From positions 3,347 through 67,346 of the forward strand of contig CAVRYC010000006.1 in assembly GCA_963725245.1 (NCBI GenBank): DNA of 64,000 nt. The letters are read 5' to 3'. Shown here in pieces: positions 35,100-63,106 of the stretch; the stretch's first letter is position 1; every line of letters starts with the position of its first letter. The translations under genes and the position numbers were made by a program. The notes below the pieces were generated by a model. The model was not told where the DNA came from. It searched no databases and saw nothing but the letters and a program-made list of their open reading frames with translations. This DNA is from an uncultured Acidobacteriaceae bacterium. GTDB lineage: Bacteria > Acidobacteriota > Terriglobia > Terriglobales > Acidobacteriaceae.

Positions 35100-35116
35100 T
35101 CGATGCCATCTCGGTT

Positions 35117-35240: not shown

Positions 35241-35268
35241 ATTCGTTCGGTTCACGATGAGATGACCA

Positions 35269-37676
35269 CTAGTACGGCCAAGTCCAGTCGCGGATTTCCG
35301 GCATATCGTCTCCGCGTTCGCGAATGTATTGCTTATGCGCGACCAGTTTGTTGCGCAGCAACTGCTTGAAGTGGCCTCCGACTTTCTGCAGTCTGGGAAC
35401 CCGGTCCACCACATCCCCCGCCAGGTGGAAGCGGTCAAGATCGTTCATCACCGTCATATCGAACGGGGTGGTGGTTGTGCCCTCTTCTTTATAGCCCCGC
35501 ACATGGAGATTGTCATGATTGTGCCGGCGATAGGTGAGGCGGTGAATCAGCCAGGGATAGCCGTGATAGGCGAAGATAATCGGCTTATCCACCGTGAACA
35601 TGGAATCGAAATCAAGATCGGAGAGACCGTGGGGATGCTCGCTCGAAGGCTGAATGGTCATCAGATCGACGACATTGACCACGCGAATCTTGATGTCGGG
35701 AAAATGCTGCCGTAAAAGATCGACCGCCGCCAAGGTTTCGAGCGTGGGCACGTCGCCCGCGCACGCCATCACGACGTCGGGTTCGGCCCCCTCGTCTGTA
35801 CTGGCCCACTCCCAGATGCCAATCCCGGTAGTGCAGTGTTCGATGGCCGACTCCATGTCGAGAAACTGCAATGCAGGTTGCTTGCCGGCGACGATGACGT
35901 TGACATAATGCCGGCTCCGCAGACAATGATCGCCCACGGAAAGCAGGCAATTAGCGTCGGGCGGAAGGTAAACGCGGACGATGTCGGCTTTCTTATTGAT
36001 CACATGATCGATGAAGCCAGGATCCTGATGGGTGAAGCCGTTGTGATCCTGCCGCCACACGTGAGAAGTCAACAAGTAGTTGAGGGATGCGATCGGACGC
36101 CGCCACTCGATCTCGCGTGTAACCTTCAGCCATTTGGCGTGCTGGTTGAACATGGAATCGATGATGTGGATAAACGCTTCATAGCAGGAGAAGAAGCCAT
36201 GGCGCCCGGTGAGCAGATAGCCTTCCAGCCAGCCCTGGCACATGTGCTCACTGAGCATCTCCAGCACGCGGCCGCGCTGCGAGAGATGTTCGTCCACCGG
36301 GAGGGTGGGCTCCATCCATTCCTTGTCGGTAACCTCAAAGAGAGCGTCCAGCCGGTTCGAGGCCGTCTCATCCGGGCCGAAGACGCGGAAGTTCTTGGCG
36401 TCCGCGTTCAGCTTCATCACGTCGCGCAAAAATCCGCCGAGCACGCGCGTGGCTTCCGCATTCTCGGTGCCAGGTTTCGGAACCTTGACGGCATAATTGC
36501 GAAAGTCGGGCATGACCAAATCGCGCAACAACAAGCCGCCGTTGGCATGCGGATTCGCCCCCATCCTGCGCTCGCCCTTGGGAGCCAATTCCGCGAGTTC
36601 CGGAATTAACTTGCCGTTCTTGTCAAACAATTCCTCGGGCCGGTAACTTTTCATCCAGTCTTCCAGGATCTTCAGGTGTTCCGGCTTCGACTGCAGATCG
36701 GCCACCGGCACTTGATGCGCGCGCCATGTACCCTCTATGGGCTTTCCATCGACCACTTTCGGGCCCGTCCAACCCTTCGGGCTGCGCAGGACTATCATCG
36801 GCCAGGCGGGCAGGCTCGAATCCCCACCGTTGCGAGCGTAGGCTTATCTTGAATCGAGCGAATTTCCTTTACGATCGTGTCCAAAGTTCCGGCCATCAGT
36901 TGATGCATTTCTTCCGGCACGTGCCCCTCGACGAAATAGGGTTTCCAGCCGTAGCCGGTGAAGAGATTGGTAAGCTCCTGATCATCCATCCGGGCAAGCA
37001 CGGTTGGATTCGCGATCTTCCAGCCGTTGAGATGAAGAATCGGCAACACGGCGCCGTCACGCGCGGGATTCAGAAATTTATTGCCATGCCAGCTCGTGGC
37101 TAGCGGGCCCGTTTCCGCCTCGCCGTCTCCCACCACGCAACAGGCGAGCAGGTCGGGGTTGTCGAACACCGCGCCACAGGCGTGCATGATCGAATAACCC
37201 AGTTCCCCACCTTCGTGGATGGAGCCCGGAGTTTCAGGCGCTGCATGACTCGGAATTCCTCCGGGAAAGGAAAATTGTTTGAACAGCCGCTGCAGGCCCT
37301 CTTCGTTTTGCGTGATGTTCGGATAAAACTCGCTGTAGCTGCCCTCCAGGTAGGTATTCGCGACCATTCCGGGGCCGCCGTGGCCGGGGCCGGCCAGGTA
37401 GATGACATTCAGATCGTAGTTCTTGATCAGGCGATTGAAATGGGCGTAGATGAAGTTCAGACCGGGCGTGGTCCCAAAGTGGCCGAGCAGTCGCGGCTTG
37501 ACGTGCTCGATCTTCAGCGGTTCGCGGAGAAGCGGATTGGCGTACAGATAAATCTGGCCGACGGAAAGATAGTTGGCCGCACGCCAGTAGGCGTCGATCT
37601 TGCGCAACTCTTCGGGCGTCAGGGGCTGCATGGAAGTATGATGCTGCGGGGAGTTTACAGAGGCTACGGGAGTCAT
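35269..37676 (-). CDS. xfp: xylulose-5-phosphate/fructose-6-phosphate phosphoketolase, 1 apparent frameshift near 36843
   Basis: [38 protein letters not shown], and the C-terminal half [32 protein letters not shown]. ORFs 36795-37676 and 35269-36798. Confidence 0.9.
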
Positions 37677-38116
37677 CGAATCCAGCCTTTCTATTTCGTG
37701 CTGTTTCGTATCTTAATTTCTCGGAGTCACCTCCGCCAACACCCGTCAGGACGTACCCCGGATATCTGACCGCCGGCCACGCTCCAGCACTAGGGAGTTC
37801 GATTAAGTCCCCGAGGTCCCCCGTGCACCCGTGTACCCTGTGGTTAAGCCTTTTGCCACACTTAATCAGAGTTTCCCTAGCACGTGGAAACCTCACTTTG
37901 CCAGCACTTCGTAGACGCCCTGACGCCCGAAGTATAGGCCAGAAGAACTCCGCCCGGAACCGCGCTCCTGGTCTGGTCTCATTTCTATTTCCCACTTTCT
38001 ATTCCCCACCAGGCATTCCCTCTGCGATACTCATCACAGAAGCTACCGCCCGTCATGGCTGCAGAAATTGCGGGCGCTGAGACTGGAAACAAGTTGGGGA
38101 GGGGAGGATTGCCATA

Positions 38117-38592
38117 ATGATGTTATATCGTCTCGTTCGGCTGATCGAGAGCCACTCCCAAGCACTCGCTGCTGGCCTTCTCGATCAAGTCCGGAATTCC
38201 AAGTTGACCCAAACTTCCAACAAAACGTCCCACCTGAAGATCTGAACGAACGGGTGGGCGAGATCTACCGTCATCTGGGCGAGTGGCTCATGGGCAAGGA
38301 TGAACTCCAACTGGAGCAGCGCTATTTGCAAATTGGCGCGCAGCGGGCCGGCCAGCGCGTGCCGATGAGCGAGGTGATTTGGGTGATCGTTTTGACCAAG
38401 GATAACCTGTGGGAGTTCATCAAGAAAGAATCGATTCTGGATCGCCCGGTGGAAGTTTTCGGCGAACTGGAAATGCTGCAGTTGCTGGAGCAGTTTTTTG
38501 ACCGGGCAATTTACTATGCCTCGGTCGGTTACGAACAGGCGGTCGCGAACCCAGCTCTCAGGGAAACGGGCGCATCATCCAAGGAAGTATAA
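38117..38592 (+). CDS. hypothetical protein, 1 apparent frameshift near 38220
   Basis: RBS ggaggattgccataATG. MMLYRLVRLIESHSQALAAGLLDQVRNS joins ..FQQNVPPEDLNERVGEIYRHLGEWL..IWVIVLTKDNLWEFI.. in ORF 38068-38592. Confidence 0.5.
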
Positions 38593-39154: not shown

Positions 39155-39868
39155 TCAGGAATGAACCATTTCTTTCAGCGCGGCTTTGTTGCGGATAATC
39201 AGGGTCGCGCCTTTTAATTGCACCAGTTGTTTCTTCTTGAACTGCGAGAACAAGCGGCTGACGGTTTCACGCGTCGTGCCAATGATTTCGGCGATTTCCT
39301 CATGCGTCAAGGTCAGCTTCAACTGCAGAGGATCGCCATTGCCCACGGCATTCGACCACCCCAGCAGTAATTGTGCGAATCTCTCGGAAGGGGAGTTGGT
39401 GAGTCCCAGGGCGCGGATCCCTTCATACGCCGTGTAGTAATTGCGGCTTAGCTGCTCCGCTACTCGCACCGCCACTTCTCCATATTCACGCATGAATTGC
39501 AGCAAGGCATCCCGGGTAATGAAATTTGCCTGGCCCGGCTCGATCATCTCGGCGGTCACTTCGTAAGGCCGGTTGGAAATCGTGGCGCTGAGCCCCAGGA
39601 CATCTCCCGCTTCGGAGATCTTGGTGATGACGGTTTTGCCCTCATCCGATGAAGTCGAAAGCTTCGCTTTCCCCGTGCACAGCACAAATACCCCGCGTGG
39701 CTGCTGTCCCTCGATAAACAGCATCGCGGATCTTGGGTAGACCGCGGTGGATCGGATCTCATTCAACCTGTGCAGCGCGACCACCGGCAGATTGCAGAAT
39801 AAATACTCCTCCCGCATCGGGCAGGTGAGGCAGTTGTCGAGGATGTTGAGCCCGTAGGGCGCGCGCAT
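39155..39868 (-). CDS. Crp/Fnr-family transcriptional regulator with an N-terminal Cys motif
   Basis: Start at the internal Met (MRAPYGLNILDNCLTCPMREEYLFC). cNMP-binding-like fold (GVFVLCTGKAKLSTSSDEGKTVI). C-terminal HTH (LTHEEIAEIIGTTRETVSRLFSQFKKKQLV). Confidence 0.85.
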   Translation of the reverse strand: MRAPYGLNILDNCLTCPMREEYLFCNLPVVALHRLNEIRSTAVYPRSAMLFIEGQQPRGVFVLCTGKAKLSTSSDEGKTVITKISEAGDVLGLSATISNRPYEVTAEMIEPGQANFITRDALLQFMREYGEVAVRVAEQLSRNYYTAYEGIRALGLTNSPSERFAQLLLGWSNAVGNGDPLQLKLTLTHEEIAEIIGTTRETVSRLFSQFKKKQLVQLKGATLIIRNKAALKEMVHS

Positions 39869-39907
39869 TCGTAACCGTCTTCCGCGCAAAATTGTATCAC
39901 TGATCAC

Positions 39908-39923
39908 TGTGATCAGGATCACA
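39908..39923. promoter_or_regulatory. perfect CRP/FNR-type palindrome TGTGATCAGGATCACA upstream of the Crp/Fnr gene, in the region divergent to the OsmC-like gene
   Basis: 7-bp arms TGTGATC / GATCACA. Lies 40-55 bp upstream of the regulator start codon. Confidence 0.6.
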
Positions 39924-40139
39924 AAAGAACGTGACTTCACGCATGGTCTCGCAAGCCATCTGCGAGCAGAATCTATTACCACGGGAGTGTGTGGAAGCTG
40001 TGCAGATGAAGGCCTCCATGAGCACCCCCCACTACCCGCACCCGAAGCTGCGGCCAAAGTCGTAACATTTCGAGCTTTCCTACTGCGTTCTTGATGCCTC
40101 TGTGACTTTCAAATGCGGAACAAGAAAGGTGATGACACC

Positions 40140-40670
40140 ATGGCAGAAGGACATCGGTTTCGAGTAGTGGCCTGGTGGGCCTCCGGCCGGACTGGCATTG
40201 CAAAATCCAGTTCTGCGCCCAATGCCATCCACTTCACTTCGCCGCCTGCTTTTGGCGGCTTGGAGGGCCGGTGGACACCGGAGGACTTGCTGCTCTGCGC
40301 GGTCGCCAGTTGCTATACCACAACCTTTCGCACCCTCGCAGAATACTCAAAGTTCGAGTACACCGACCTGCAGGTGGAAGCGGACGGTGTGATCGGCAAG
40401 AGTGCCGCCGGATACAGCTTTGGCGAGGTGTTGATTCGCGCGAATCTGACGATTTCGCAGGAAGATGAACGGGCACAGGCCATCAAGCTTTTACACAAGG
40501 CTAAGGAGCAATGCCTGGTGTCGCGCGCCCTCGCGCTCGAACAGAGATTTGAACCAAGCGTGCAGGTGGGTGAACCACGAGTGGAAACTAGCCGGCCTTT
40601 GCCCGCTTTCCCACAAAGACGCTGTGACGTTGACGCGCGCAATCGCAACGGTTGGCGCATGATTCGGTAG
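40140..40670 (+). CDS. OsmC/Ohr-family protein
   Basis: GRTGIAKSSSAPNAIHFTSPPAFGG..WTPEDLLLCAVASCYTTTF..KAKEQCLVSRAL. Confidence 0.7.
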   Translation: MAEGHRFRVVAWWASGRTGIAKSSSAPNAIHFTSPPAFGGLEGRWTPEDLLLCAVASCYTTTFRTLAEYSKFEYTDLQVEADGVIGKSAAGYSFGEVLIRANLTISQEDERAQAIKLLHKAKEQCLVSRALALEQRFEPSVQVGEPRVETSRPLPAFPQRRCDVDARNRNGWRMIR

Positions 40671-43754: not shown

Positions 43755-43797
43755 CCGTCTTCGCAAAACACTTTTCGCAAAACAAATGGAGACATTA

Positions 43798-43884
43798 ATG
43801 GGCAAGGTGCCCTGGCACGTCACGATGTCGCTGGACGGCTTCATCGCCGGGCCCAACGATGCGATGGACTGGGTGTTGGAGGTC
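43798..43884 (+). pseudogene. 5' fragment of a second RibD_C/dihydrofolate-reductase-family gene
   Basis: RBS ggagacattaATG. MGKVPWHVTMSLDGFIAGPNDAMDWV resembles the N-terminus of the 31030-31554 protein. Similarity then stops and GC drops. Confidence 0.5.
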
Positions 43885-44009
43885 TTTGTAGTCCTTAGGT
43901 CATTGGATTTCCCGAACCGCGAAAACTACCGTTACTATAGTCAGTTGCGGCGGTAGTAAAGCGTTAAGCTTGCCCTCTCCGCAACCGTAGAGTACGCTAT
44001 AGCTTCTAT

Positions 44010-44219: not shown

Positions 44220-44244
44220 GTCTCAAGATTCCATATAGGAAATA

Positions 44245-46168: not shown

Positions 46169-46184
46169 TGTGACCAGAGTCACA
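46169..46184. promoter_or_regulatory. perfect palindrome TGTGACCAGAGTCACA (CRP/FNR-type box)
   Basis: 6-bp arms TGTGAC / GTCACA. About 280 bp upstream of the PFOR start. Confidence 0.5.
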
Positions 46185-46336: not shown

Positions 46337-46352
46337 TGTGACGTAAATCACA
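46337..46352. promoter_or_regulatory. perfect TGTGA-N6-TCACA box (TGTGACGTAAATCACA) upstream of PFOR
   Basis: Centre about 114 bp upstream of the ATG at 46459. Confidence 0.55.
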
Positions 46353-46458
46353 CGTCGCTGTGAGCAGCGTTCCCGACAATATCACCTTATTCCGTCATGC
46401 TTTACCTAACCATTTCCTCAGAACGAGCGGGGTTACAGAGAAAGCAGAAGGGGATTTC

Positions 46459-49400
46459 ATGAAGCGTAAATTCAAGACCATGGACGGCAACGAGGCAGTG
46501 GCCTATGTCGCCTACCGCCTCAATGAGGTCATCGCCATTTATCCCATCACCCCCTCGTCGAACATGGGCGAATGGGCGGACCAATGGGCGTCGGAAGAGG
46601 TGCCCAACATCTGGGGCAGCGTGCCCCACGTGATCGAAATGCAGAGCGAAGGCGGAGCTTCCGGCGCGGTTCATGGCGCGCTCCAGACCGGGGCCCTGTC
46701 CACGACCTTCACGGCGTCGCAAGGCCTGCTGCTGATGATCCCCAACATGAACAAGATCGCCGGCGAACTTACGGCTACGGCATTCCACGTCAGCGCGCGC
46801 ACGGTGGCAACCCACGCCCTCTCGATTTTCGGCGATCACTCGGATGTGATGTTCTGCAGAACTACGGGGTTCGCGATGCTCTCGTCGAACTCGGTCCAGG
46901 AGGCAATGGACCTGGCGCTCATCGCGCATGCGGCCACTCTCGAAACCCGCATCCCTTTCCTGCATTTCTTTGACGGCTTCCGCACTTCGCATGAAGTCAA
47001 CAAGATCGAGATGCTCACCGAAGACGACATGCACGCCCTCATCAACATGGATCGCGTCGTCGAACATCGGCAGCGGGCGCTTTCTCCGGACCATCCCGTG
47101 TTGCGCGGCACCGCGCAAAATCCCGACGTCTACTTTCAGGCGCGCGAAGCCTGCAATCCTTACTACGACGCCTGTCCGGACAAGGTCCAGGCGGTGATGG
47201 ATAAGTTTTCCCAGGTGGTGGGGCGTTCCTATCACCTCTTCGATTACGTGGGCGCGCCCGATGCCGAGCGCGTGATCGTCATGATGGGCTCCGGCGCAGA
47301 GACCGCCCACGAGACGGTTGATTATCTGAACCAGCACGGCGAGAAAGTTGGCCTGCTGAAAGTCCGGCTGTACCGCCCGTTCTCCGTCAAGCGATTCCTC
47401 GAAGCTCTTCCGCCAACCGTGCGCCAGATCGCCGTTCTCGATCGCACCAAGGAAGCTGGCGCCGGGAGAGAGCCGCTCTATCTTGACGTCGTCAGCGCGA
47501 TTCACGAAGGAATCAGGCTGGGCTATGGAACGCTGAAGGTCGCGCCGGAAATCGTCGGTGGACGTTACGGTCTCTCTTCGAAAGAATTCACGCCCGCGAT
47601 GGTCAAAGCCGTTTACGACAACCTGGCGAAGCCAAGTTCAAAGATGAAAGACCACTTCACCGTCGGCATTCAAGACGACGTGAGCCATAGCAGCCTGGAT
47701 TACGATTCCGATTTTTCCGTCGAGCCCGAGAGCGTGGTGCGCGCCATGTTCTACGGCCTGGGCGCGGATGGCACGGTGGGCGCGAACAAGAACTCGATCA
47801 AGATCATCGGCGAAAACACCGACAACTACGGGCAGGGATACTTCGTCTACGACTCCAAGAAGTCGGGCGCGATGACGGTTTCGCACCTGCGTTTCGGGCC
47901 GCAGCCGATCCGCTCCAGCTACCTGATTTCGAAGGCCAACTTCGTGGCCTGCCATCAATGGATTTTCCTCGAGCGCTACGACATGCTCAGCGCCCTGGTT
48001 TCCGGTGGCGTTTTCCTGCTCAATAGCCCTTTTAATAAGGACGAAGTTTGGGACCATCTGCCGCGCGAAGTCCAGACGCAATTGATCGCGCAAGAAGGCC
48101 CGGTTTTTCATCATCGACGCCTATCAGGTGGCGAGCGATACCGGCATGGGCTCGCGCATGAATACCATTCTGCAGACTTGCTTCTTCGCCATCTCCAAGG
48201 TTCTGCCTGGCGAACAGGCCATTGAAGCCATTCGCAAGTCGATCCGCGACACCTACGGCAAGAAAGGTGACGAGGTCGTGCAGCAGAACCTGCACGCCGT
48301 GGATGAAACGCTGTCCCACCTTTTTGAAGTCAGCGTACCCGACAAGGTCACGAGCCACGCCGAAATGCCGCCGGCGTTCTCTCCGCAGGCGCCGCAGTTT
48401 GAGCGCGATGTGCTCGGCGTAATCTACGCCGGCCACGGCGACGAGATCCCCGTGAGCGCTTTCCCCGTCGATGGAACCTTCCCCACCGGCACCGCCAAAT
48501 GGGAAAAGCGCAACATCGCGCTCGAAATTCCGGCGTGGGATACGAAGATCTGTATTCAGTGCGGCAAGTGCGCCATGGTCTGCCCGCACGCCGTGATCCG
48601 CATCAAGGTCTACGACTCCAAGCAACTGGAGGGCGCGCCCGCGACCTTCAAATCTACCGAGGTGCGCGACAAGGACAAAGACTGGCAGGGCCTGAAGTAC
48701 ACCATCCAGGTTGCGCCCGAAGATTGCACCGGATGCGGCATCTGCGTCGACATCTGTCCCGCAAAGAACAAGAGCGAGACTCGCCTGAAAGCGATCAACA
48801 TGGTGCCGCAGCCGCCGCTGCGCGAGCCGGAGCGGGAGAACTGGGACTTCTTCCTCAAGATTCCAGAGCTCGATCGCCGGAAGATCAAGAGCACAAGTAT
48901 CCGCCAGCAACAGATACAGGAGCCTTTATTTGAATTTTCGGGAGCTTGTTCCGGGTGCGGCGAGACGCCCTATCTGAAGCTGCTTTCCCAACTCTTCGGA
49001 GATCGTTCCGTGATCGCCAATGCGACCGGCTGCTCTTCGATCTACGGCGGCAACCTGCCGACCACGCCTTGGGCCAAGAATCTCGACGGCCGCGGACCGG
49101 CTTGGTCGAATTCCCTGTTTGAAGACAATGCCGAGTTCGGCCTGGGATTCAGGCTCTCCATCGACAAGCAGGCCGAATTCGCCCGCGAGTTAGTTCGCCG
49201 TCAGTCTGCGTCCATCGGAGACGAACTGGTCACCGCTCTGCTGGAGAGTCCGCAAAAAGACGAGGCGGACATTTACGAGCAGCGGCAGCGCGTCGAACTG
49301 CTGAAGGAAAAGCTGAAGGGTCAGGACTCCCCGGATGCCAAGCAACTGCTGGCGCTCGCCGACATGCTGGTGAAAAAGAGCGTTTGGATCGTCGGCGGCG

Positions 49401-50063
49401 ACGGCTGGGCTTATGACATTGGCTACGGCGGCCTCGATCATGTGATCGCCAGCGGCCGCAACGTGAACCTGCTGGTGCTCGACACCGAGGTTTATTCGAA
49501 CACCGGAGGCCAAGCCTCGAAATCCACCCCCCGCGCAGCAGTGGCAAAGTTCGCGGCGGGAGGCAAGCCGGGCCTAAAGAAAGACCTCGGGCTGATGGCC
49601 ATGGCCTACGGCAATGTTTATGTGGCCAGCGTCGCCATGGGCGCCAAGGACGAGCACACGCTCAAGGCCTTCCTGGAAGCGGAAGCCTACGACGGCCCCA
49701 GCCTCATCATCGCTTACTCGCACTGCATCGCGCACGGCATCGACATGACGACGGCAATGTCGGACCAGAGAGTCGCGGTCGATTCGGGACAGTGGCTGCT
49801 CTATCGCTACCATCCGGAGCGCGCCCTCGCTGGCGAGAATCCGTTGATACTCGATTCCCGCACCCCCACGCGCAAAGTCAAAGACTATCTGCAGCAGCAG
49901 ACGCGCTTCAAGATGCTGCCAGAAGAGCAATCCTGAACACGCCAAACTTCTGTGGCAGGAGGCGCAGCAGGATGCTGAGGCGCGCTATCGCCTGTACGAG
50001 TATATGGCGCAGCGCAAACCACACAGGCTGCGGCTCTCGCGGAAGTGGTCCAGATACCAGTGA
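46459..50063 (+). CDS. nifJ: pyruvate:ferredoxin (flavodoxin) oxidoreductase, single-polypeptide NifJ/PFOR type, 2 or more apparent frameshifts (~48090, ~49920); 3' end uncertain
   Basis: RBS agaaggggatttcATG. MDGNEAVAYVAY..IYPITPSS; two ferredoxin motifs CIQCGKCAMVCP and CTGCGICVDICP; TPP region GGDGWAYDIGYGGLDH. Confidence 0.9.
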
Positions 50064-51412: not shown

Positions 51413-51450
51413 TGTGACGCGCCTCACTGCGACTTGTGCGTAAGATCACC
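51413..51450. promoter_or_regulatory. two near-consensus CRP/FNR-type boxes upstream of the CoA-transferase gene
   Basis: TGTGACGCGCCTCACT (51413-51428) and TGTGCGTAAGATCACC (51435-51450). Confidence 0.4.
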
Positions 51451-51579
51451 GCCGCAAAACCGAGAGGCGTTTCTAATGGAATGTAATAGATGCGAGGCGG
51501 TCGCTGTGACAGGGATTTCGCCCTGCGATGAGTCCGGTGCTGTGGGGCTGTTGGGTAGCCCGGGCAAGGGGGAAAACTG

Positions 51580-52911
51580 ATGTCCTGGGAACTTGATTAC
51601 AAGAAAAAGTTGCGAACGGCAGATGAGGCGCTCGCTTGTGTGCAGTCGGGAATGCGTGTCTACATTCAGCCGGGCTGCGCTGAACCTGAGACTCTGGTCG
51701 AGGCGCTGATGCGCCGTGGTCCCGATGTGCAGGACGTCGAAATCGTGCACATGATGACCATGGGAGCCGCCCCTTATGTGGCTCCTGAGATGGCCGGGCA
51801 CTTCCGGCACAATGCAGTATTTATCGGCGCCAACGTGCGCCAGGCCATCAACGAAGGCCGGGCCGACTACACGCCGATCTACCTTAGCGATATCGAAGAA
51901 CTGTTCGAAACCGGCGCCATGCCAATTGATGTGGCCCTGCTCGAACTCTCTCCTCCCGACCCGCACGGCTTCTGCAGCTTCGGCGTGGGCGTGGATACGT
52001 CGCTCACGGCCGCCAAATGTGCGCACTACGTAGTGGCGCAGATCAACGATCAAATGCCGCGCACCTTCGGCGACAGCTTCATCCATGTGACTGAGCTGGA
52101 CGCCATTGTGGATTCCTCTCGGCCTCTGTGCGCCTTGAAGATCCCGGAAATCACCGACCTGCAAAGGGCCATTGCCCGCAACGTCGCTGATTTGATTGAC
52201 GACGGGGCCGTGCTGCAGACTGGTATCGGCGGAATCCCGAATGCGGTGCTGCCGCTTCTCATGGATCGCAAGGATCTCGCGGTCCACAGCGAATTGGTTT
52301 CCGACGGCGTGATTCCTTTAATCAACGCGGGCGTGATTACGGGTGCGCGCAAGAACTTTAAACCGCGCAAGATCATCCTGGGATTTGCTCTGGGCACGAA
52401 AAAGTTGTTTGATTTCGTGGACAACAACCCCATCTTCGAGTTCCATCCCACGTCCTATACCAACGACCCCGGATTCATTGCCCGCAACGACAACATGGTG
52501 GCGATCAACTCTGCGCTGCAGGTCGATCTCACCGGTCAGGTCTGCTCCGATTCGATCGGAAGCCAGTTCTATAGCGGCATTGGCGGACAAGTGGATTTTC
52601 TGCGCGGAGCTTCGCGCGCCAAGGGTGGCAAGCCGATCATCGCCATTTCCTCGACCGCAAAAGACGGCGCCATCTCGCGGATCGTGCCCATGCTCAGCCC
52701 GGGCGCGGGAGTGGTTACTTCGCGCGGTCTGGTCCGTTACATCGTGACCGAATACGGGGTAGCGTATCTGCACGGCAAGACCATCCGGGAACGGGCGCAG
52801 GCGCTGATCGAAATTGCGCATCCCGATTTTCGAGAAGAACTTTATCAATTTTCCGAGAAAACCTGGTTGCTGCAGCGGCCTTTAGTTGGGGCGCCAGCGG
52901 CAACAAGGTGA
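51580..52911 (+). CDS. acetyl-CoA hydrolase/transferase family protein (4-hydroxybutyrate CoA-transferase-like)
   Basis: Intact 443-aa ORF. ADYTPIYLSDI, LQTGIGGIPNAV, HSELVSDG, NSALQVDLTGQV, SGIGGQVDFLRGA. Confidence 0.8.
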   Translation: MSWELDYKKKLRTADEALACVQSGMRVYIQPGCAEPETLVEALMRRGPDVQDVEIVHMMTMGAAPYVAPEMAGHFRHNAVFIGANVRQAINEGRADYTPIYLSDIEELFETGAMPIDVALLELSPPDPHGFCSFGVGVDTSLTAAKCAHYVVAQINDQMPRTFGDSFIHVTELDAIVDSSRPLCALKIPEITDLQRAIARNVADLIDDGAVLQTGIGGIPNAVLPLLMDRKDLAVHSELVSDGVIPLINAGVITGARKNFKPRKIILGFALGTKKLFDFVDNNPIFEFHPTSYTNDPGFIARNDNMVAINSALQVDLTGQVCSDSIGSQFYSGIGGQVDFLRGASRAKGGKPIIAISSTAKDGAISRIVPMLSPGAGVVTSRGLVRYIVTEYGVAYLHGKTIRERAQALIEIAHPDFREELYQFSEKTWLLQRPLVGAPAATR

Positions 52912-52958
52912 ACGTCATCCAGGTGAACGTTAAAGAACGAACGTCAACGAGGTGAACG

Positions 52959-53255
52959 ATGGCAGGCCAAGCGCGCGGTAAAGTCACGGTCGATGTCGAA
53001 GAATGCAAGGGATGTGGGCTATGCGTGGAGTCCTGCCCGCCGAAGTGCCTGGAACTGGAGCCGGAGTTGAATGCTTACGGAGCTCACCCGGCGCACTATA
53101 CCGGCCACGACTGTACTGGTTGCGGAATCTGCTTTTATTGCTGCCCGGAACCGGGCGCGATTACCGTCTACCGCATAAAGGCGAAAGCCAAAGCGTTGAC
53201 ACCGGCGGCGGCGCAGGTGCTCGCGCCAGGAGGCGAACATGCGGCAACTCTGTAA
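52959..53255 (+). CDS. 2-oxoacid:ferredoxin oxidoreductase delta subunit (2 x 4Fe-4S ferredoxin)
   Basis: [12 protein letters not shown] and [12 protein letters not shown]. Confidence 0.8.
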
Positions 53256-54309
53256 GGGAAACGTGGCGGTGGTCAAGGGCGCGATCCTCGCCGGGTGCCG
53301 CGCCTACTACGGGTACCCGATTACTCCAGCCAGCGAAATCGCCGAGGCGGCCGCGCTCTACTTCCCGCAGGTCGGCGGAACATTTATTCAAGCGGAGAGC
53401 GAAGTCTCCGCCATCAACATGGTGTATGGAGCAGCTGCGGCTGGCGTCCGCGCCATGACTGGCTCCTCCGGCCCCGGCCTCAGCCTGATGCAGGAAGGTA
53501 TGTCCTATCTGGCCGGCTCGGAACTGCCCTGCGTGATCGTGGATGTAATGCGCGGCGGACCGGGACTGGGCAACATCGCGCCGGAACAAAGCGACTACTT
53601 CGCGATGGTGAAAGGCGGCGGCCATGGCAATTACCGCAATATCGTGCTCGCTCCCGCCTCGGTGCAGGAGATGGCCGACTTCACCATGTTGGCCTTCGAG
53701 CTCGCCGACAAGTACCGCAATCCCGCCGTGGTGCTGACCGACGGCTTCGTCGGGCAAATGATGGAGCCGCTAGAGCTCGCAGTTCCCGACAAAGACCATG
53801 AGATTCAGCTGCCGGAAAAACCCTGGGCGGTAAAGGGAACGCCAGAGACGCGTGCCAACCTCATCAGTTCCATTTATCTCGAAACCGACGAACTCGAAGC
53901 GCACCAGCGCAGAATGGAAGCCAAGTACATCCGCGCGCAAGAAGCCGAACCGCGCTCGGAGCTCTACCGCGCCGAGGACGCCGAAGTGCTGCTGGTCGGG
54001 TACGGCATCGTGTCGCGAGTGTTGATCTCTACAGTGGAAGCGCTGCGCAAGGACGGCGTGAAAGCCGGACTGTTCCGCCCCATCACTCTGTGGCCCTATC
54101 CTTCGAAGGCTCTGGTGGAAGCGGCGGCTCAGGCTAACGTGCAAAAGGTCCTGGTCGTCGAATTGAGCAATGGACAGATGGTAGAAGATGTGCGCCTCGC
54201 GCTGAACGGCAAGGTGCCGGTGGAGTTCTACGGCCGGGTAGGTGGCAACGTGCCCTCGGTCCGAGAGCTGCAGCAACAGGTGTTGACCCGCATGACCGTG
54301 GCGGTCTGA
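53239..54309 (+). CDS. korA: 2-oxoacid:ferredoxin oxidoreductase alpha subunit
   Basis: Intact [60 protein letters not shown]. Confidence 0.8.
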
Positions 54310-54350
54310 GACCAGTTCCAACGAGGATCTGGTTTGGAAGGACGACGAGA

Positions 54351-55340
54351 ATGGCAAACGAGAGCGTGATCGGCGTAGTGGATTCAGAGGTTAAGTCCGA
54401 GGTTAAGTCCGAACTTAAATCGGAGGTTAAGCTTTCCGAACCTAAGCCGGAAGCCAGCCCCGCTGTTGACCCTAAATTTGGCGTCAGCGTTAGCAACAAC
54501 GGATACGAACTAGTCCACTCCAAGTCGCCGCTGTTCTATGACCTCTACGAGCGCAAGTCGGAGCTGAAGCACCAGACCCACTACTGTCCCGGCTGCGGAC
54601 ACGGAGTGGTCCACAAGCTGATTGCCGAAGCGTTGCAGGACCTGGGGCTACAGGACAAAACGATCTTCGTAAGCCCGGTAGGCTGCTCGGTGTTCGCCTA
54701 CTATTATTTTGACGTAGGCAACGTACAGGTCGCCCACGGCCGCGCGCCGGCCGCAGCCACGGCCATCAAACGAGCGGGCCCCGACAAAATCGTCATCTCC
54801 TATCAAGGAGACGGCGACTTGGCGGCAATCGGCACGGCCGAGATCATTCATGCCGCCAACCGAGGCGAGAAGATCACCGTCTTTTTCGTGAACAATGCAA
54901 TCTACGGGATGACTGGCGGGCAGATGGCGCCAACCACCATGGTCGGGCAGAAGAGCACAACATCTCCCTGGGGCCGTCGGCCGTCGAACGAAGGCTTCCC
55001 TCTGCACATGGCAGAACTGATCGCCACGCTCGAAGCGCCCGCCTATGTCGAACGCGTGGCGCTATCGGACAACAAGAACATCATGAAAGCGCGGCGGGCG
55101 ATCCGCAAAGCACTAGAGATCCAGCGCGATGGCACGGGCTTCTCGTTTGTCGAAATCCTGTCGCCGTGCCCGACGATTTGGGGCAAGGACCCGGTGGAAG
55201 CGCGGCGCTGGGTTCTCGAAAAGATGACGCCAACCTTCCCCCTGAATGTCTTCCGCGACCGCAAGCCGGAGATTCCCGTCACCAATCAGCCCCCGCAACG
55301 GTCCGTAGCGGATGTGCTTGAGATCACTCCGAACATATAA
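54351..55340 (+). CDS. korB: 2-oxoacid:ferredoxin oxidoreductase beta subunit (TPP-binding) with a repeat-encoded N-terminal extension
   Basis: HYCPGCGHG, YQGDGDLAAIG, NNAIYGMTGGQ. The N-terminus SEVKSEVKSELKSEVK is encoded by 12-bp repeats. Confidence 0.8.
   Translation: MANESVIGVVDSEVKSEVKSELKSEVKLSEPKPEASPAVDPKFGVSVSNNGYELVHSKSPLFYDLYERKSELKHQTHYCPGCGHGVVHKLIAEALQDLGLQDKTIFVSPVGCSVFAYYYFDVGNVQVAHGRAPAAATAIKRAGPDKIVISYQGDGDLAAIGTAEIIHAANRGEKITVFFVNNAIYGMTGGQMAPTTMVGQKSTTSPWGRRPSNEGFPLHMAELIATLEAPAYVERVALSDNKNIMKARRAIRKALEIQRDGTGFSFVEILSPCPTIWGKDPVEARRWVLEKMTPTFPLNVFRDRKPEIPVTNQPPQRSVADVLEITPNI
54384..54431. repeat. 4 x 12-bp in-frame tandem repeat at the 5' end of korB
   Basis: tcagaggttaag tccgaggttaag tccgaacttaaa tcggaggttaag. 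Confidence 0.85.
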
Positions 55341-55962
55341 AGACGGGGCGCACGATACGTCCAAACCGAAACACGCCCATCGCTTCAAAGACGTTAAAAT
55401 CAAAATCGCAGGCCTCGGAGGACAGGGCGTGCTGCTAATGGGGCAACTCCTCATCGAAATGGGCATGCGCGAGGGCCTGGAAGTCAGCTGGCTGCCATCC
55501 TATGGTCCGGAGATGCGTTCGGGCAGCGCCCACTGCCATGTGTGCTTGTCGAAAGAGCGCATCGGGTCGCCGCTCGTCTCGCGCCCGGATGTGCTCGTAG
55601 CCATGAATGAGTTCTCGCTGCGCAAGTTTGCCCACGAGGTAGTGAGTGGCGGAGTCATTCTTTATAACGGCGTCAGCTTGCCTGCCGACTTTTATGCGCC
55701 GGAAGTACAGGCGGTCGCGATTCCGGCGGCGGAGATCGCCGACAAACTCGGTTCCACGAAGGCAGCCAACATAGTAATGTTGGGAGCGTTGCTCGAAGAC
55801 ACGGAGTGTCTGGCTCCCGGAACGGCATTGAGCGTACTCGAAGACAAGGTGAAAAAAGTCGATATGCTGGAAATTAACCGCAAAGCGCTCGCTGCCGGCC
55901 GACGGTTTATCGAGGAACAGGCCCACGTTGGCGCGGTAAGCCAGCCCGACGGCTTCGCCTAG
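55312..55962 (+). CDS. korC: 2-oxoacid:ferredoxin oxidoreductase gamma subunit; start uncertain
   Basis: IKIAGLGGQGVLLMGQLL, SYGPEMRSGSAHCHV, NIVMLGALL. Confidence 0.75.
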   Translation: MCLRSLRTYKDGAHDTSKPKHAHRFKDVKIKIAGLGGQGVLLMGQLLIEMGMREGLEVSWLPSYGPEMRSGSAHCHVCLSKERIGSPLVSRPDVLVAMNEFSLRKFAHEVVSGGVILYNGVSLPADFYAPEVQAVAIPAAEIADKLGSTKAANIVMLGALLEDTECLAPGTALSVLEDKVKKVDMLEINRKALAAGRRFIEEQAHVGAVSQPDGFA

Positions 55963-58706: not shown

Positions 58707-58744
58707 CGACCACCCCCCTTTTAGCTCTCCCACCAAGAACCAAT

Positions 58745-60191: not shown

Positions 60192-60294
60192 TGTGACCGC
60201 GGTCACCGGTTGGTGTGACCAGGTTACCAGAATGGCTCTCCTGGACGCGTCCCTCATGGCCCAGAAGTCACGATTTAGGGTGACCTGGGTCACT
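60192..60294. promoter_or_regulatory. cluster of three GTGACC-N4-GGT(C/T)AC palindromes upstream of the cytochrome c gene
   Basis: TGTGACCGCGGTCACC (60192-60207), TGTGACCAGGTTACCA (60214-60229), GGTGACCTGGGTCACT (60279-60294). Confidence 0.5.
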
Positions 60295-60469: not shown

Positions 60470-60787
60470 ATGAAGACGACAAAGCTGGTGATGCTGGTAA
60501 TGACAATCGCGGTGGCCCTATTCATCCTGATCCCCAATCTGTCATGGGCTGACGATGACGGAGCCGCTCTCTACAAAGCAAAATGCGCCACGTGCCACGG
60601 AGCGGATGCAGCTGGCAAGCCCGCAATGAAAGCTCCGAGCCTGATTTCGGACGAGGCCAAGAAGAAGTCGGATGCCGATCTGGCCAAGGCCGTCACGGAG
60701 ACGGCGAAGCACCCGGCCGCGGTGAAGAGTCTGGCCGCTGACGACGTGAAAGTGGTCGTGACTTACATTCGCAGCCTGCAGAAGTAG
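60470..60787 (+). CDS. small secreted class I cytochrome c
   Basis: RBS aaggagaagaaacgaaatcATG; signal peptide; heme motif CATCHG; C-terminus VVVTYIRSLQK. Confidence 0.8.
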   Translation: MKTTKLVMLVMTIAVALFILIPNLSWADDDGAALYKAKCATCHGADAAGKPAMKAPSLISDEAKKKSDADLAKAVTETAKHPAAVKSLAADDVKVVVTYIRSLQK

Positions 60788-61151
60788 TCATTGGCATGTC
60801 AGTCATTGGCTGTTCCTCTTTGCGCACGCCGCTGTCGCGCAACTGCGGGCAGCGGCTGAAGAAGGCGGAGGGTGAGTATGGAGATGTCCGGCTCAATTCG
60901 GCGGACGGAACGGAAACTGGCCGATCCGTCGCCAGCCGGAAAGCTTCTCCCCTGTTCGCTTTCTCACAGAGGAACAGCCCGCCCGGGTCCGGGAATGCAC
61001 ACCTCTCCGGACCCGGTTCTTTCTTTGCAGTCGAGTCGCCAAGAGTGTTCTGTACGGTTCCCAAGTCTGTTCCGTCACAGCGTACGCTTACCTCGTCACT
61101 TCATTCCACTGGAACGGAAGTCCCGCTTGGGAGCAACGAGGAGCAATTTCC

Positions 61152-61924
61152 ATGAGTAAGGCCCTGCTGTATGACGCGACGATGTGCATCGGCTGCAAAC
61201 AGTGTGAAGCGCCTGCGCGCAGCAGAACAAGCTGCCGTACGACGACAAGGTGGCAGCCGAGTCGGTGCAATCGGCACATAAATACACGGTCGTTATGACC
61301 AAGGACGACAAATTCATGCGCCGGCTGTGCATGCACTGTGAGCATCCCGCTTGCGCGTCGGTTTGTCCCGTGGGCGCCTTCCATAAGACCAAGGAGGGTC
61401 CGGTCGTATACGACGTCTGGAAGTGCATCGGCTGCCGCTATTGCATGGTGGCCTGCGCGTTTGCCCAGCCCAAGTACGAATGGCAATCGCTGAATCCGCG
61501 CGTGCGCAAATGCATTATGTGCCCGGACCGCGTGGTTGCCGGCAAGCAGACGGCATGTGCCGAGATCTGTCCGACCGGCGCCACAAAGTTCGGCGAGCGC
61601 GACGACCTCATTAAGGAAGCGCAGGACCGTATCCGTCAAAATCCATCCACCTACCTGCCTCGTATTTATGGTCTTAACGAAGTTGGCGGAACGTCGGTCT
61701 TTATTCTTTCCGGCGTGAACGTTGAAGAGTACGGCTATCCCGCGTCCGCAAAAATCGGCGACACCCCGATGCCGGAATACACCGGGCGAGTGATGGAGAG
61801 AATTCCAGACTTTATCCCGGTGTGGACGTTGGTGTTGGGAGGCATTTATTGGGTTTCGCATCGCCGCGAAGAAGTAGCCGCCGCTGAAGCAGAAGAAAAG
61901 AAGAAGAACGGGAGTGCGCGATGA
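61152..61924 (+). CDS. 4Fe-4S ferredoxin-type subunit of a membrane oxidoreductase (HybA/NrfC/PsrB-like), 1 apparent frameshift near 61208
   Basis: RBS gaggagcaatttccATG. CIGCKQCE, CMHCEHPACASVCP, CIGCRYCMVAC, CIMC..CAEICP. C-terminal TM helix. Confidence 0.8.
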
Positions 61925-63106
61925 AGATCAAGCTGACTTTTTGGAGAGTCGTATTCATTGTGATCATGGGCCTGGGCCTGTACTCCTCATTTATTCGCTA
62001 TTTCCGTGGCTTGGGCGCGGTTTCAAACATGACGGACCAGTTTCCCTGGGGCCTCTGGATCGGCTTCGACTGCCTGTGCGGGGTCATGCTGGCGGCGGGC
62101 GGCTTCTGCATGGTTGGCGCGGTTTACCTGTTCAACGTCGAGCGCCTGCACAGCGTTGTGCGCCCGGCGGTGTTGACGGCGTTCCTGGGCTATGTACTTT
62201 TCATCGTTGGACTGTTGTTCGACCTGGGCCGTCCCTGGTACATCTGGCATCAGCTCATCTACATGAACCCGCACTCGGTCATGTTCGAGGTGGGCATGTG
62301 CGTGATGACCTACACCACTGTGCTCTTCTTCGAATTCCTTCCCAACGTATTCGAGCGCTTCAATCTGAAGACTCCGATCAAGTGGATTAAGAAGATCTAC
62401 CCGGTGCTGATCGTCTTGGGCATCCTGCTCTCCACCCTGCACCAGAGTTCGCTCGGATCGCTCTATCTGATCATGCCGAGCAAGCTGCATCCCTTCTGGT
62501 ACACGCCGGCGCTGCCGTTCTTCTTCTTTGGCTCGGCGATTGCGGTTGGTTTGGCGATGACGATCTTCGAGTCCACGCAGAGCGCGAAGGCCTTCGGCCG
62601 TCACCTTGAACTTCCGGTTCTGGTCGAACTGGGCGGCGCCTTGCTGGTTGCTCTCTGGGTCAATGCCCTGCTGCGCTTCGAGGACTTACTTCCATCGCGG
62701 CCTGCTGGGACAGATCTTTAAGCCCAGCTACGAAGCGTACTTTCTGTGGCTCGAACTGGCGCTGGCCTTCGTGATTCCCATCACCATGCTCAGCTTCAAG
62801 AAGGTCAGGCTGTCGCCACAGTGGCTTGTATCTGGCCTCGATCTGTACCGTGCTCGGATTCATCACCAACCGCCTCAATATCAGCGCTCATCGGCTTTGA
62901 GACTTACGTCGGGCATCACTACATGCCGAAGTGGACGGAGTTCTCCGATGACCCTCATGATTATCGCGATGGGCTTCGCCCTGTTCGGGTTGGCAGTGAA
63001 GTACCTGCCTATCTTTCCCGAAGAACGACATCCAGTGAAGCCGCGTCTCCGAACCGAAACCGCGCCCGTGGTTGCTACGCCGGTATTAGGCCATGCGGGA
63101 GACTGA
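61921..63106 (+). CDS. NrfD/HybB-family integral membrane subunit (quinone-interacting), about 3 apparent frameshifts
   Basis: ATGA overlap with the preceding gene. Multiple TM helices. FPWGLWIGFDCLCGVMLAAGGF, GRPWYIWH, LHQSSLGSLYL. Pieces in ORFs 61921-, 62606- and 62746-. Confidence 0.7.

What the first reader, a model, noticed from the sequence alone, without database searches (positions are those of the whole stretch)
39908..39923. A TGTGA-N6-TCACA regulon linking the FNR/CRP-like gene, PFOR, the CoA-transferase/KOR cluster and the cytochrome/FeS/NrfD module
Perfect 16-bp palindromes occur in three places:
- Upstream of the regulator itself: TGTGATCAGGATCACA, 39908-39923.
- Twice upstream of nifJ: TGTGACCAGAGTCACA at 46169-46184 and TGTGACGTAAATCACA at 46337-46352.

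Near-perfect boxes occur upstream of the CoA-transferase (51413-51428 and 51435-51450). Three more lie upstream of the small cytochrome c gene (60192-60207, 60214-60229, 60279-60294).

I did not notice such boxes upstream of the housekeeping genes I read. The regulator has an N-terminal C-x2-C-x8-C motif plus a further Cys, reminiscent of the FNR Fe-S ligands. An oxygen- or redox-responsive regulon is therefore plausible.
Basis: partly seen in the sequence, partly recalled or inferred. Interest (0 to 1): 0.65.

Follow-up and report, generated by a model that had tools for sequence, protein, structure and literature searches.

The report
Redox-type CRP/FNR regulon in peat Acidobacteria
The palindromic boxes are real binding sites of an uncharacterised four-cysteine CRP/FNR-family regulator that, across at least 80 species of peat-soil Acidobacteria, sits in front of genes for fermentative and low-oxygen energy metabolism, so they point to the switch these abundant soil bacteria probably use when oxygen runs out.

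Summary
The conserved core is GTGA-N6-TCAC. The window has 7 copies against 0.68 expected. The seventh (62771) lies inside nrfD and is at chance level.

In 80 species-level Terriglobales loci (1.5 Mb) there are 352 copies against about 21 expected. Only 4 fall in the 49% of sequence covered by conserved protein matches. A box precedes the regulator in 80/80 loci, nifJ in 49/49 and the cytochrome c gene in 7/7. Control genes (pat, dhod, korA, aminotransferase) have almost none.

The CoA-transferase/KOR cluster usually follows a small unknown gene that carries the box. In the window's lineage the cluster has moved and has its own box.

New finding: 63% of boxes have a weaker partner exactly 22 bp away. 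Pairs sit near -63.5/-41.5 of conserved -10 elements, a geometry that suggests activation. At the regulator's own promoter the box overlaps the -35 region, which suggests autorepression.

The regulator has a CRP-type recognition helix (R-E-x3-R), lacks the cAMP-binding residues, and has four conserved cysteines arranged differently from FNR. Oxygen or redox sensing is plausible but untested.

The parts
39155..39868 (-). CRP/FNR-family regulator, 237 aa. N-terminal C13-x2-C16-x8-C25 plus C64. Recognition helix T-R-E-T-V-S-R.
   Evidence: Pfam cNMP_binding, HTH_Crp_2 and Crp. The four Cys are invariant in 81 orthologues. C13, C16 and C64 are kept in at least 90% of 33 homologues down to about 35% identity, and C25 in most.
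39908..39923 (.). Primary box of the regulator/osmC divergent control region (TGTGATCAGGATCACA)
   Evidence: A perfect GTGA-N6-TCAC lies at -52 to -59 from the start codon in nearly all of 80/80 loci.
39931..39944 (.). Weak partner site (GTGACTTCACGCAT, 6/8 core), 22 bp from the primary box
   Evidence: Conserved as GTGAC-N5-(G/A)CAT in the loci.
39891..39896 (-). Conserved extended -10 (TGnTACAAT) of the regulator's own promoter. The box centre is about 31-33 bp upstream of the start site it implies.
   Evidence: Alignment of 81 upstream regions. Peak of -10-like hexamers at 14 nt.
39967..39972 (+). -10-like hexamer CAGAAT of a divergent promoter toward osmC, 22 nt after the partner site
   Evidence: A hexamer with A2/T6 lies 21-24 nt after the partner in 80 of 81 sequences.
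40113..40670 (+). OsmC/Ohr-family gene, divergent from the regulator; probable target
   Evidence: Pfam OsmC. Present next to the regulator in 77/80 loci. Promoter geometry.
38023..38038 (.). Degenerate box (TGCGATACTCATCACA) upstream of the unknown gene o174. It is a perfect box in most other species.
   Evidence: Weight-matrix score 15.1. Alignment of the o174 promoters.
38117..38592 (+). o174, a conserved protein of about 155 aa with unknown function, read through a frameshift here. In most species it heads the CoA-transferase/KOR operon.
   Evidence: No Pfam or NCBIfam match.
46169..46184 (.). Distal nifJ box, without a partner site. TAAGAT lies 22 nt downstream.
   Evidence: At the same position only in the closest relatives; a second upstream box occurs at other distances in some species.
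46337..46352 (.). Proximal nifJ box (TGTGACGTAAATCACA)
   Evidence: Every one of 49 loci has a perfect core upstream of nifJ, at -110 to -139 from the ATG in nearly all.
46360..46373 (.). Partner site of the proximal nifJ box (GTGAGCAGCGTTCC, 6/8), followed by the conserved GACAAT (46375-46380)
46460..49936 (+). nifJ-type pyruvate:ferredoxin/flavodoxin oxidoreductase, in two reading frames here
   Evidence: Pfam POR_N, PFOR_II, POR, EKR, Fer4 and TPP_enzyme_C. Single-base insertions relative to L001. Covered by wetland and peat metatranscriptome contigs.
51413..51428 (.). Stronger box upstream of the CoA-transferase (core perfect, C at position 10)
   Evidence: Conserved in L001 and L006.
51435..51450 (.). 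Partner box (7/8 core), 22 bp downstream. TCTAAT (51472-51477) lies 22 nt after it.
   Evidence: sequence.
51580..55962 (+). CoA-transferase and 2-oxoacid:ferredoxin oxidoreductase subunit genes (probable operon, possibly with the aminotransferase gene at 56166-57443)
   Evidence: Pfam. No boxes precede korA or the aminotransferase gene in other species.
60192..60207 (.). Box that probably serves the leftward promoter (small membrane ORF 60037-60141 and asnA). GACAAT lies 22 nt away on the minus strand (60165-60170).
   Evidence: AsnA promoters in L050, L055, L059 and L073 have the same spacing.
60214..60229 (.). Weak partner of 60192 (6/8 core). The left half GTGAYC is conserved in 6 of 7 loci.
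60279..60294 (.). Box of the cytochrome c promoter. GAAACT lies 23 nt downstream (60317-60322). A conserved half-site AGTCAC lies 22 bp upstream (60258-60271).
   Evidence: 7/7 loci.
60470..63106 (+). Cytochrome c, 4Fe-4S (NrfC-like) and NrfD-like membrane protein genes, with frameshifts
   Evidence: Pfam; ORF list.
62771..62784 (.). GTGATTCCCATCAC inside the NrfD-like coding sequence. Chance-level match, not part of the regulon.
   Evidence: no partner; encodes V-I-P-I-T.

Best explanation
The boxes are operators of the adjacent CRP/FNR-family regulator, which defines a conserved regulon in Terriglobales and related Acidobacteriota.

Shown by sequence and comparison:
- The regulator has the CRP-type DNA-reading residues R-E-x3-R, which match a GTGA-N6-TCAC palindrome.
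- The palindrome is strongly enriched, is almost confined to non-coding DNA, and keeps its position in front of the same genes across 80 species.
- It also accompanies relatives of the regulator that are only 38-47% identical.
- Most boxes are the strong half of a composite operator, strong site - 8 bp - weak site, with centres 22 bp apart.

Inferred:
- Two dimers bind side by side on one face of the DNA.
- Where the pair sits about 63.5 and 41.5 bp upstream of the start site, it activates transcription in the class II manner. The start site is itself inferred from conserved -10 hexamers 22-23 nt after the promoter-proximal site. This geometry is seen at NfnA-like genes, the asnA side, cytochrome c, o174/CoA-transferase/KOR, osmC, and in one of two possible readings nifJ.
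- At the regulator's own extended -10 promoter the strong site is centred about -31 to -33. There it would block RNA polymerase, giving negative autoregulation.

Inferred with less support: the four conserved cysteines hold an oxygen- or redox-labile cofactor, most likely an Fe-S cluster. If so, the regulon switches on ferredoxin-linked fermentative and low-potential electron-transfer enzymes when oxygen falls.
For: Enrichment:
- 3 perfect 16-mers against 0.05 expected.
- 7 core matches against 0.68 expected.
- 352 against about 21 expected in 80 loci.
- 4 of 352 in protein-matching sequence that covers 48.6% of the DNA.

Conservation:
- Regulator 80/80.
- nifJ 49/49 and cytochrome c 7/7, against pat 1/69, dhod 0/35, korA 0/19 and the aminotransferase gene 1/16.
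- The CoA-transferase lies 14-83 bp behind box-bearing o174 in about 40 of 48 loci, and has its own box where it has moved.

Further targets in other species: NfnA-like, tandem Usp, malic enzyme, AsnA and hydrogenase-type Fe-S genes.

Distant relatives: four loci with 38-47% identical regulators hold 2-7 perfect boxes each, against 0.02-0.19 expected.

Tandem rule: 63% of boxes have a site with at least 6/8 core matches exactly 22 bp away, against about 1% at most other offsets from 14 to 40 bp, the next highest being 7% at 24 bp.

Promoter geometry: -10-like hexamers peak at 14, 22-23 and 44-45 nt after the box.

Protein:
- R200, E201 and R205 are nearly invariant.
- The rule linking R-E-x3-R to TGTGA is described in PMC1274295 and PMC5701242.
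- The four Cys are conserved.
- The model has the CRP/FNR fold, pLDDT 91.7. Holo-FNR aligns over 230 columns, including the N-terminal extension.
Against: - No binding, expression or transcription-start data exist. The metatranscriptome contigs show only that nifJ is transcribed.
- Start sites are inferred from -10-like hexamers, and several of those are weak matches.
- At nifJ the partner site lies between the strong box and the conserved GACAAT. Either the geometry there differs, or the -10 element is the weaker CATGCT further downstream.
- A paralogous CRP-family protein could share the boxes. L081 and L082 encode a second one nearby.
- The cysteines do not align with FNR's C20/C23/C29/C122 pattern, and no solved structure matches the N-terminal segment by sequence. 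The cofactor and the signal are therefore unknown.
- Related sequences are not independent, so the counts overstate the number of independent events.
Confidence: 0.8

Rival explanations
1. The boxes are real operators, but they are bound by another CRP-family protein of the genome, for example a cAMP-dependent CRP or a paralogue with the same recognition helix. On this view the adjacent four-cysteine regulator is merely one of its targets.
For: TGTGA-N6-TCACA is the generic CRP consensus. Some related loci encode a second CRP-family gene close by. Only 64 kb of this genome is visible.
Against: - The box precedes this regulator in 80/80 species.
- It accompanies distant members of the same four-cysteine subfamily in four other lineages.
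- The subfamily keeps R-E-x3-R nearly invariant.
- Box-bearing targets cluster around the regulator gene.
Confidence: 0.1
2. The regulator binds the boxes but senses something other than oxygen. Candidates are nitric oxide or nitrosative stress (as for HcpR and NsrR-type systems), a thiol-disulfide redox state, or a metal. The cysteines might even be a structural zinc site, with the signal arriving elsewhere.
For: - The cysteine pattern differs from FNR: x8 spacing and a fourth Cys in the beta-roll at position 64 instead of the C122 position.
- Targets include OsmC, Usp, HSP20, GroEL, hemerythrin and ferritin-neighbouring genes in various lineages, which resemble a stress regulon.
- Desulfovibrio HcpR1 uses the same box for a nitrosative-stress regulon.
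Against: The core conserved targets in the window's lineage are enzymes typical of anoxic metabolism. They are oxygen-sensitive, ferredoxin-dependent enzymes (PFOR, 2-oxoacid:ferredoxin oxidoreductase, NfnA-like) and a cytochrome/NrfCD-like module. No hcp, nor or nir genes were seen among the targets.
Confidence: 0.3
3. The palindromes are chance matches, or copies of a dispersed repeat element, without regulatory function.
For: About one core match per 64 kb is expected by chance, and one intragenic match (62771) is of that kind.
Against: - Enrichment is 10- to 17-fold.
- The boxes are almost absent from coding sequence.
- The spacer N6 and the flanks vary while the core and the position stay fixed.
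- Spacing to -10 elements is fixed, and the partner site sits at exactly 22 bp.
Confidence: 0.01

Closest known systems
FNR of Escherichia coli / Aliivibrio fischeri (oxygen sensor with an N-terminal [4Fe-4S] cluster)
   Same: Same fold. Holo-FNR aligns over 230 columns with TM-score 0.83. Both have an N-terminal cysteine-rich extension ahead of the beta-roll. The predicted class II activation geometry, the predicted negative autoregulation and the target set dominated by anaerobic energy metabolism are also shared, though these are inferred here.
   Different: The cysteine spacing is C-x2-C-x8-C, not C-x2-C-x5-C. The fourth Cys is at position 64 in the beta-roll, and the position equivalent to C122 is not Cys. 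The recognition helix is R-E-x3-R rather than E-x2-S-R, and the box is GTGA-N6-TCAC rather than TTGAT-N4-ATCAA. The NCBIfam Fnr model scores 60 bits against a cut-off of 228.
CRP of E. coli, GlxR of Corynebacterium and CRP of Mycobacterium tuberculosis (cAMP receptors)
   Same: Best sequence and structure matches in the PDB: 3e-16 for GlxR and Foldseek 3.7e-19. Same DNA-reading residues and the same TGTGA-N6-TCACA-type consensus.
   Different: In the alignment to GlxR, the conserved Glu and Arg-Thr/Ser of the cyclic-nucleotide phosphate-binding cassette are Leu93 and Tyr102-Glu103 here. The protein carries four conserved cysteines that those proteins lack. The NCBIfam CRP model scores 52 bits against a cut-off of 266.
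Fnr of Bacillus subtilis and its clostridial/thermoanaerobacterial orthologues
   Same: This is a precedent for an FNR-type anaerobic regulator that uses a CRP-like box. PMC1274295 notes that the B. subtilis fnr orthologue Crp2 has a CRP-like motif.
   Different: From my own knowledge, the Bacillus protein holds its cluster at the C-terminus. Here the cysteines are N-terminal plus one in the beta-roll, with no C-terminal cysteines.
HcpR / HcpR1 of Desulfovibrio
   Same: R, E and R at positions 1, 2 and 6 of the recognition helix, a TGTGA-N6-TCACA box, and autoregulation (PMC5701242). Predicted regulons include ferredoxin-, hemerythrin- and cytochrome c-like genes (PMC1274295).
   Different: The HcpR proteins lack an FNR-type cysteine motif and centre on hcp and nitrosative stress. 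No hcp was seen among the targets here.

Membership tests
CRP/FNR superfamily | N-terminal cNMP-binding-type beta-roll, a long dimerisation helix and a C-terminal Crp-type helix-turn-helix | tested here: met
   Pfam PF00027, PF13545 and PF00325 all score above their cut-offs. The AlphaFold model has pLDDT 91.7 and TM-scores of 0.83-0.84 to GlxR and FNR.
FNR proper (Fnr/Anr/EtrA type) | Four cluster ligands in the pattern C-x2-C-x5-C near the N-terminus plus a Cys at the end of the beta-roll (C122 in E. coli) | tested here: not met
   The pattern here is C13-x2-C16-x8-C25 plus C64. My manual alignment to the E. coli FNR sequence, recalled from memory, puts Asn/Phe at the C122-equivalent position ('GQANFI'); no tool alignment to FNR was printed. 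The N-terminal segment matches no solved structure by sequence.
FNR proper (Fnr/Anr/EtrA type) | Recognition helix E-x2-S-R reading TTGAT-N4-ATCAA | tested here: not met
   The helix is T-R-E-T-V-S-R, with R200, E201 and R205 nearly invariant. The boxes are GTGA-N6-TCAC.
FNR proper (Fnr/Anr/EtrA type) | Score above the curated family threshold | tested here: not met
   NCBIfam NF008365 (Fnr) scores 60.2 bits against a cut-off of 228. FnrL scores 48.6 against 300, and FtrB 71 against 211.
FNR proper (Fnr/Anr/EtrA type) | Oxygen-labile [4Fe-4S] cluster that controls dimerisation and DNA binding | not testable with these tools
   This needs anaerobic purification and spectroscopy.
cAMP receptor protein (CRP/GlxR/Vfr type) | Phosphate-binding cassette residues that hold cAMP (Gly-Glu ... 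Arg-Ser/Thr) | tested here: not met
   In the alignment to GlxR these positions read Gly92-Leu93 and Tyr102-Glu103. Across the subfamily the second position is a conserved Pro-Tyr. NCBIfam CRP scores 52.4 bits against a cut-off of 266.
cAMP receptor protein (CRP/GlxR/Vfr type) | R-E-x3-R recognition helix and TGTGA-N6-TCACA operator | tested here: met
Class II CRP/FNR-dependent promoters | Operator centred near -41.5 from the transcription start, replacing the -35 element | tested here: inconclusive
   Conserved -10-like hexamers lie 22-23 nt after the promoter-proximal site. That would put the centre at -41.5/-42.5. No start site has been mapped.

The most novel reading that the evidence does not exclude
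The regulator would represent a distinct sensor class within the CRP/FNR superfamily. Three N-terminal cysteines (C-x2-C-x8-C) and one beta-roll cysteine would hold a redox-labile cofactor in a geometry unlike FNR's. The active form would occupy a 36-bp composite operator as two cooperating dimers with centres 22 bp apart. The same pair of sites would activate one promoter and repress the divergent one. This would be the master switch by which the Terriglobia that dominate peat move to ferredoxin-based fermentation under anoxia.
Probability: 0.3. Interest if true: 0.7.

Novelty: new variant of a known kind. Interest (0 to 1): 0.55.

Why it matters
Terriglobia are among the most abundant bacteria in peat and acidic soils. 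They are usually treated as aerobes, yet their genomes carry PFOR, Nfn, hydrogenase-type and cytochrome modules.

A conserved regulator and a readable operator code tie these genes together. That gives a concrete, testable model of how these organisms respond to anoxia. The regulon could be predicted in any metagenome-assembled genome from sequence alone, and metatranscriptomes could be interpreted in terms of one switch.

For the CRP/FNR field the finding adds three things:
- a widespread subfamily that combines CRP-type DNA reading with a cysteine set unlike FNR's;
- a strict 22-bp tandem-site rule;
- a shared control region that appears to repress one promoter while activating the divergent one.

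None of this was found described in the literature searched.

Tried and rejected
- A first search with the wrong spacing (GTGA-N8-TCAC) gave only chance-level hits. It serves as an internal negative control.
- Simple sigma-70 promoter scans of the regulator and nifJ control regions found nothing. The promoters were instead recognised from cross-species conservation.
- A sigma-54-like reading of the o174 promoter (TGGC-N11-GC) was considered and rejected. The spacing is off by one, and the GG is lost in one clade.
- Metatranscriptome contigs from four wetland and soil runs were laid on the nifJ region to find the start site. They show transcription of nifJ but no usable 5' end.
- A sequence search of the N-terminal half against the PDB was meant to place the cysteines on FNR. 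It returned no match covering residues 1-23.
- The 62771 and 11137 matches were examined as possible extra targets and rejected. The first is coding, the second has a core mismatch, and neither has a partner site.
- Literature searches for an Acidobacteria CRP/FNR regulon found nothing relevant.

Full report
**1. The observation**

The three perfect TGTGA-N6-TCACA palindromes are at the stated coordinates. Three are found where 0.05 are expected. With one mismatch allowed there are 7 against 1.31 expected.

- a CRP/FNR regulator (39155-39868, minus strand);
- an OsmC-family gene;
- a Pat-like acetyl-CoA synthetase/GNAT gene;
- nifJ-type PFOR;
- an acetyl-CoA hydrolase/transferase;
- three 2-oxoacid:ferredoxin oxidoreductase subunits;
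- an aminotransferase;
- a c-type cytochrome;
- a 4Fe-4S protein and an NrfD-like protein.

**2. Origin of the sequence and comparative material**

The regulator is 85-99% identical to proteins annotated from Terriglobales metagenome-assembled genomes. A scan of one genome per species returned 80 loci of about 20 kb. They come from peat, fen and soil Acidobacteriaceae/Terriglobales, including 'Candidatus Sulfotelmatobacter', and their regulators are 83-100% identical. The order regulator - osmC - pat - nifJ - dhod is widely conserved.

**3. The true motif and its enrichment**

All 80 loci carry a palindrome upstream of the regulator, at -52 to -59 from the start codon in nearly all. Only GTGA-N6-TCAC is invariant; the outer T/A is not.

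A matrix built from 315 distinct sites gives t-GTGA-Y-c-n-n-g-R-TCAC-a. This core occurs 7 times in the window against 0.68 expected. It occurs 352 times in the 1.5 Mb of loci against about 21 expected.

Only 4 of the 352 lie within tblastn matches to 22 window proteins, although those matches cover 48.6% of the DNA (p about 1e-93).

In the window, six matches are intergenic. The seventh (62771) encodes V-I-P-I-T inside the NrfD-like gene and is the expected chance hit.

**4. Which genes are linked**

| Gene | Loci with a perfect core upstream |
|---|---|
| Regulator | 80/80 |
| nifJ | 49/49 |
| Cytochrome c | 7/7, with two boxes in six of them |
| pat | 1/69 |
| dhod | 0/35 |
| korA | 0/19 |
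| Aminotransferase | 1/16 |

The regulator count is and the others. The nifJ box lies at -110 to -139 from the ATG in nearly all loci. The last four genes serve as controls.

The CoA-transferase has its own box in only 3 of 47 loci. In about 40 of 48 loci it lies 14-83 bp behind, and on the same strand as, a small unknown gene (o174) that carries a perfect box. Those loci commonly continue with the KOR subunits and the aminotransferase gene.

In the window's own lineage (window, L001, L006) the cluster sits behind nifJ-dhod instead and has its own boxes. There the o174 box has decayed to GCGA...TCAC, and the spacing to its partner site has changed. The cluster therefore keeps a box whichever way the genome is arranged.

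Other box-bearing genes in other species are an NfnA-like Fe-S flavoprotein (25 loci), tandem Usp (22), malic enzyme (11), AsnA, a UbiB-like kinase and a hydrogenase-type Fe-S protein.

**5. A tandem operator**

Of 364 perfect boxes, 63% have a second site with at least 6 of 8 core bases exactly 22 bp away. At most other offsets from 14 to 40 bp the figure is about 1%, the next highest being 7% at 24 bp.

In the window the pairs are:
- 39909 + 39931
- 46338 + 46360
- 51414 + 51436
- 60193 + 60215
- 60280 + 60258

They are these partners. The chance-level matches at 62771 and 11137 have no partner. Neither does the distal nifJ box at 46170.

**6. Promoter geometry (inferred; no start site is mapped)**

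Hexamers resembling a -10 element pile up at 14, 22-23 and 44-45 nt after the box.

- *NfnA.* The strong box is followed by 22 nt, then GACAAT or CAGAAT, and the start codon is about 30 nt further on. The weak partner lies upstream. This places the pair at about -41.5 and -63.5.
- *Leftward promoter at 60193.* It has the same pattern: GACAAT at 60165-60170 on the minus strand, leading to a small membrane ORF and asnA.
- *Cytochrome c promoter at 60280.* It also has the same pattern.
- *o174 and the window's CoA-transferase.* The strong box is the distal one, and the weak partner is 22 nt from the -10 element (GAGACT, and TCTAAT at 51472-51477).
- *Regulator's own promoter.* A conserved extended -10 (TGnTACAAT) follows the strong box by only 10-14 nt in most species. 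The box is then centred near -31 to -33 and should block RNA polymerase.
- *Opposite strand of the same region.* The partner site is followed after 21-24 nt by a -10-like hexamer in 80 of 81 sequences. One pair of sites would thus repress the regulator gene and activate a divergent promoter toward osmC.
- *nifJ.* This case is ambiguous. The strong box is followed by an invariant 23 nt and a conserved GACAAT, which would put the box at -42. However, the partner lies inside that 23-nt stretch. An alternative -10 (CATGCT/CATTCT) lies 22 nt after the partner.

**7. The regulator**

It has the CRP/FNR domains and a confident CRP/FNR fold. GlxR, M. tuberculosis CRP and holo-FNR are all close, with TM-scores of 0.80-0.84. 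No curated NCBIfam family is reached: FtrB scores 71 bits against a cut-off of 211, Fnr 60 against 228, and CRP 52 against 266.

The recognition helix is T-R-E-T-V-S-R. R, E and R are nearly invariant in homologues down to 35% identity. Published analyses tie these residues to TGTGA-type boxes (PMC1274295, PMC5701242).

In the alignment to GlxR, the cAMP-binding Glu and Arg-Ser/Thr are replaced by Leu and Tyr-Glu. It is therefore not a cAMP receptor.

C13, C16, C25 and C64 are invariant in 81 orthologues. In the wider family C13, C16 and C64 are kept in at least 90% of sequences, and C25 in most. The spacing (x2, x8) and the position of the fourth cysteine differ from FNR, and the C122-equivalent residue is not cysteine. 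The protein may work like FNR, but it is not a member of the FNR subfamily.

**8. Breadth of the family**

Regulators only 38-47% identical were examined in four other lineages. One is 'Candidatus Acidiferrales' and one is an organism with 71% G+C. Each again sits among perfect boxes, 2 to 7 per locus against 0.02-0.19 expected. The boxes precede Usp, HSP20, GroEL, hemerythrin, cytochrome c and multihaem cytochrome genes. The pairing of this protein subfamily with this box is therefore old, while the set of targets shifts between lineages.

**9. What remains open**

The signal and the cofactor are unknown. So are the transcription start sites, the role of the partner site at nifJ, and whether paralogues share the boxes.

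Metatranscriptome contigs show only that nifJ-like transcripts are abundant in wetland and peat samples.

No publication describing this regulon was found in the searchable library. That is not proof that none exists.

**10. Verdict**

This is a genuine, conserved transcription-factor regulon of a known general kind (CRP/FNR). It is run by an uncharacterised subfamily with a distinctive cysteine set and a strict 22-bp tandem-site architecture. The oxygen- or redox-sensing step remains an inference.

Noticed in passing
window 570-3185 (mutS), 35269-37676 (phosphoketolase), 38117-38592 (o174), 46460-49936 (nifJ), 58745-59909 (asnA), 61152-63106 (NrfC/NrfD-like): Many otherwise well-conserved genes are split over two reading frames. 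In nifJ the cause is single extra bases relative to the 96% identical L001 (near 48090 and 49920). The pattern suggests indel errors of a long-read assembly rather than real pseudogenes.
   Followed up: partly
window 43755-46159: About 2.4 kb is inserted between pat and nifJ compared with related genomes. It carries a Mutator/IS256-family transposase gene (44295-45635, minus strand) and a small ORF with a weak aspartyl-protease match. The junction lies about 10 bp before the distal nifJ box, and metatranscriptome contigs diverge there. Both nifJ boxes are intact.
   Followed up: partly
window 46381-46459 and nifJ leaders of L008-L080: The nifJ 5' leader is conserved between species. In many loci it contains a hairpin-forming stretch, CCGTTCCCTCAGAACGG, which could be a regulatory or stabilising RNA structure.
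   Followed up: no
window 38117-38592; o174 orthologues in about 65 loci: A conserved protein of about 155 aa (N-terminus MMMLYRLVRLIE...) has no Pfam or NCBIfam match. In most species it heads the CoA-transferase/KOR operon and carries one of the best-conserved boxes. Its function is unknown.
   Followed up: partly
window 33862-37676: Phosphoketolase and acetate kinase genes lie divergent from o174. Together with Pat, PFOR, the CoA-transferase and KOR, they make this 25-kb stretch a dense island of acetyl-CoA, acetyl-phosphate and ferredoxin metabolism.
   Followed up: no
L081, L082, L084, L086: In lineages with distant relatives of the regulator, the boxed genes are mostly stress and electron-transfer genes: Usp, HSP20, GroEL, hemerythrin and multihaem cytochromes. 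A second CRP-family gene is often adjacent.
   Followed up: partly
window 11137-11150: CTGATCCTGATCAC lies in an intergenic stretch. It has a weight-matrix score of 13.8, one core mismatch and no 22-bp partner, so it is probably not functional.
   Followed up: partly
window 57659-58802: Two minus-strand ORFs lie between the aminotransferase gene and asnA. One has no family match and the other has a weak NucS C-terminal endonuclease match. They look like an inserted nuclease-type module.
   Followed up: no
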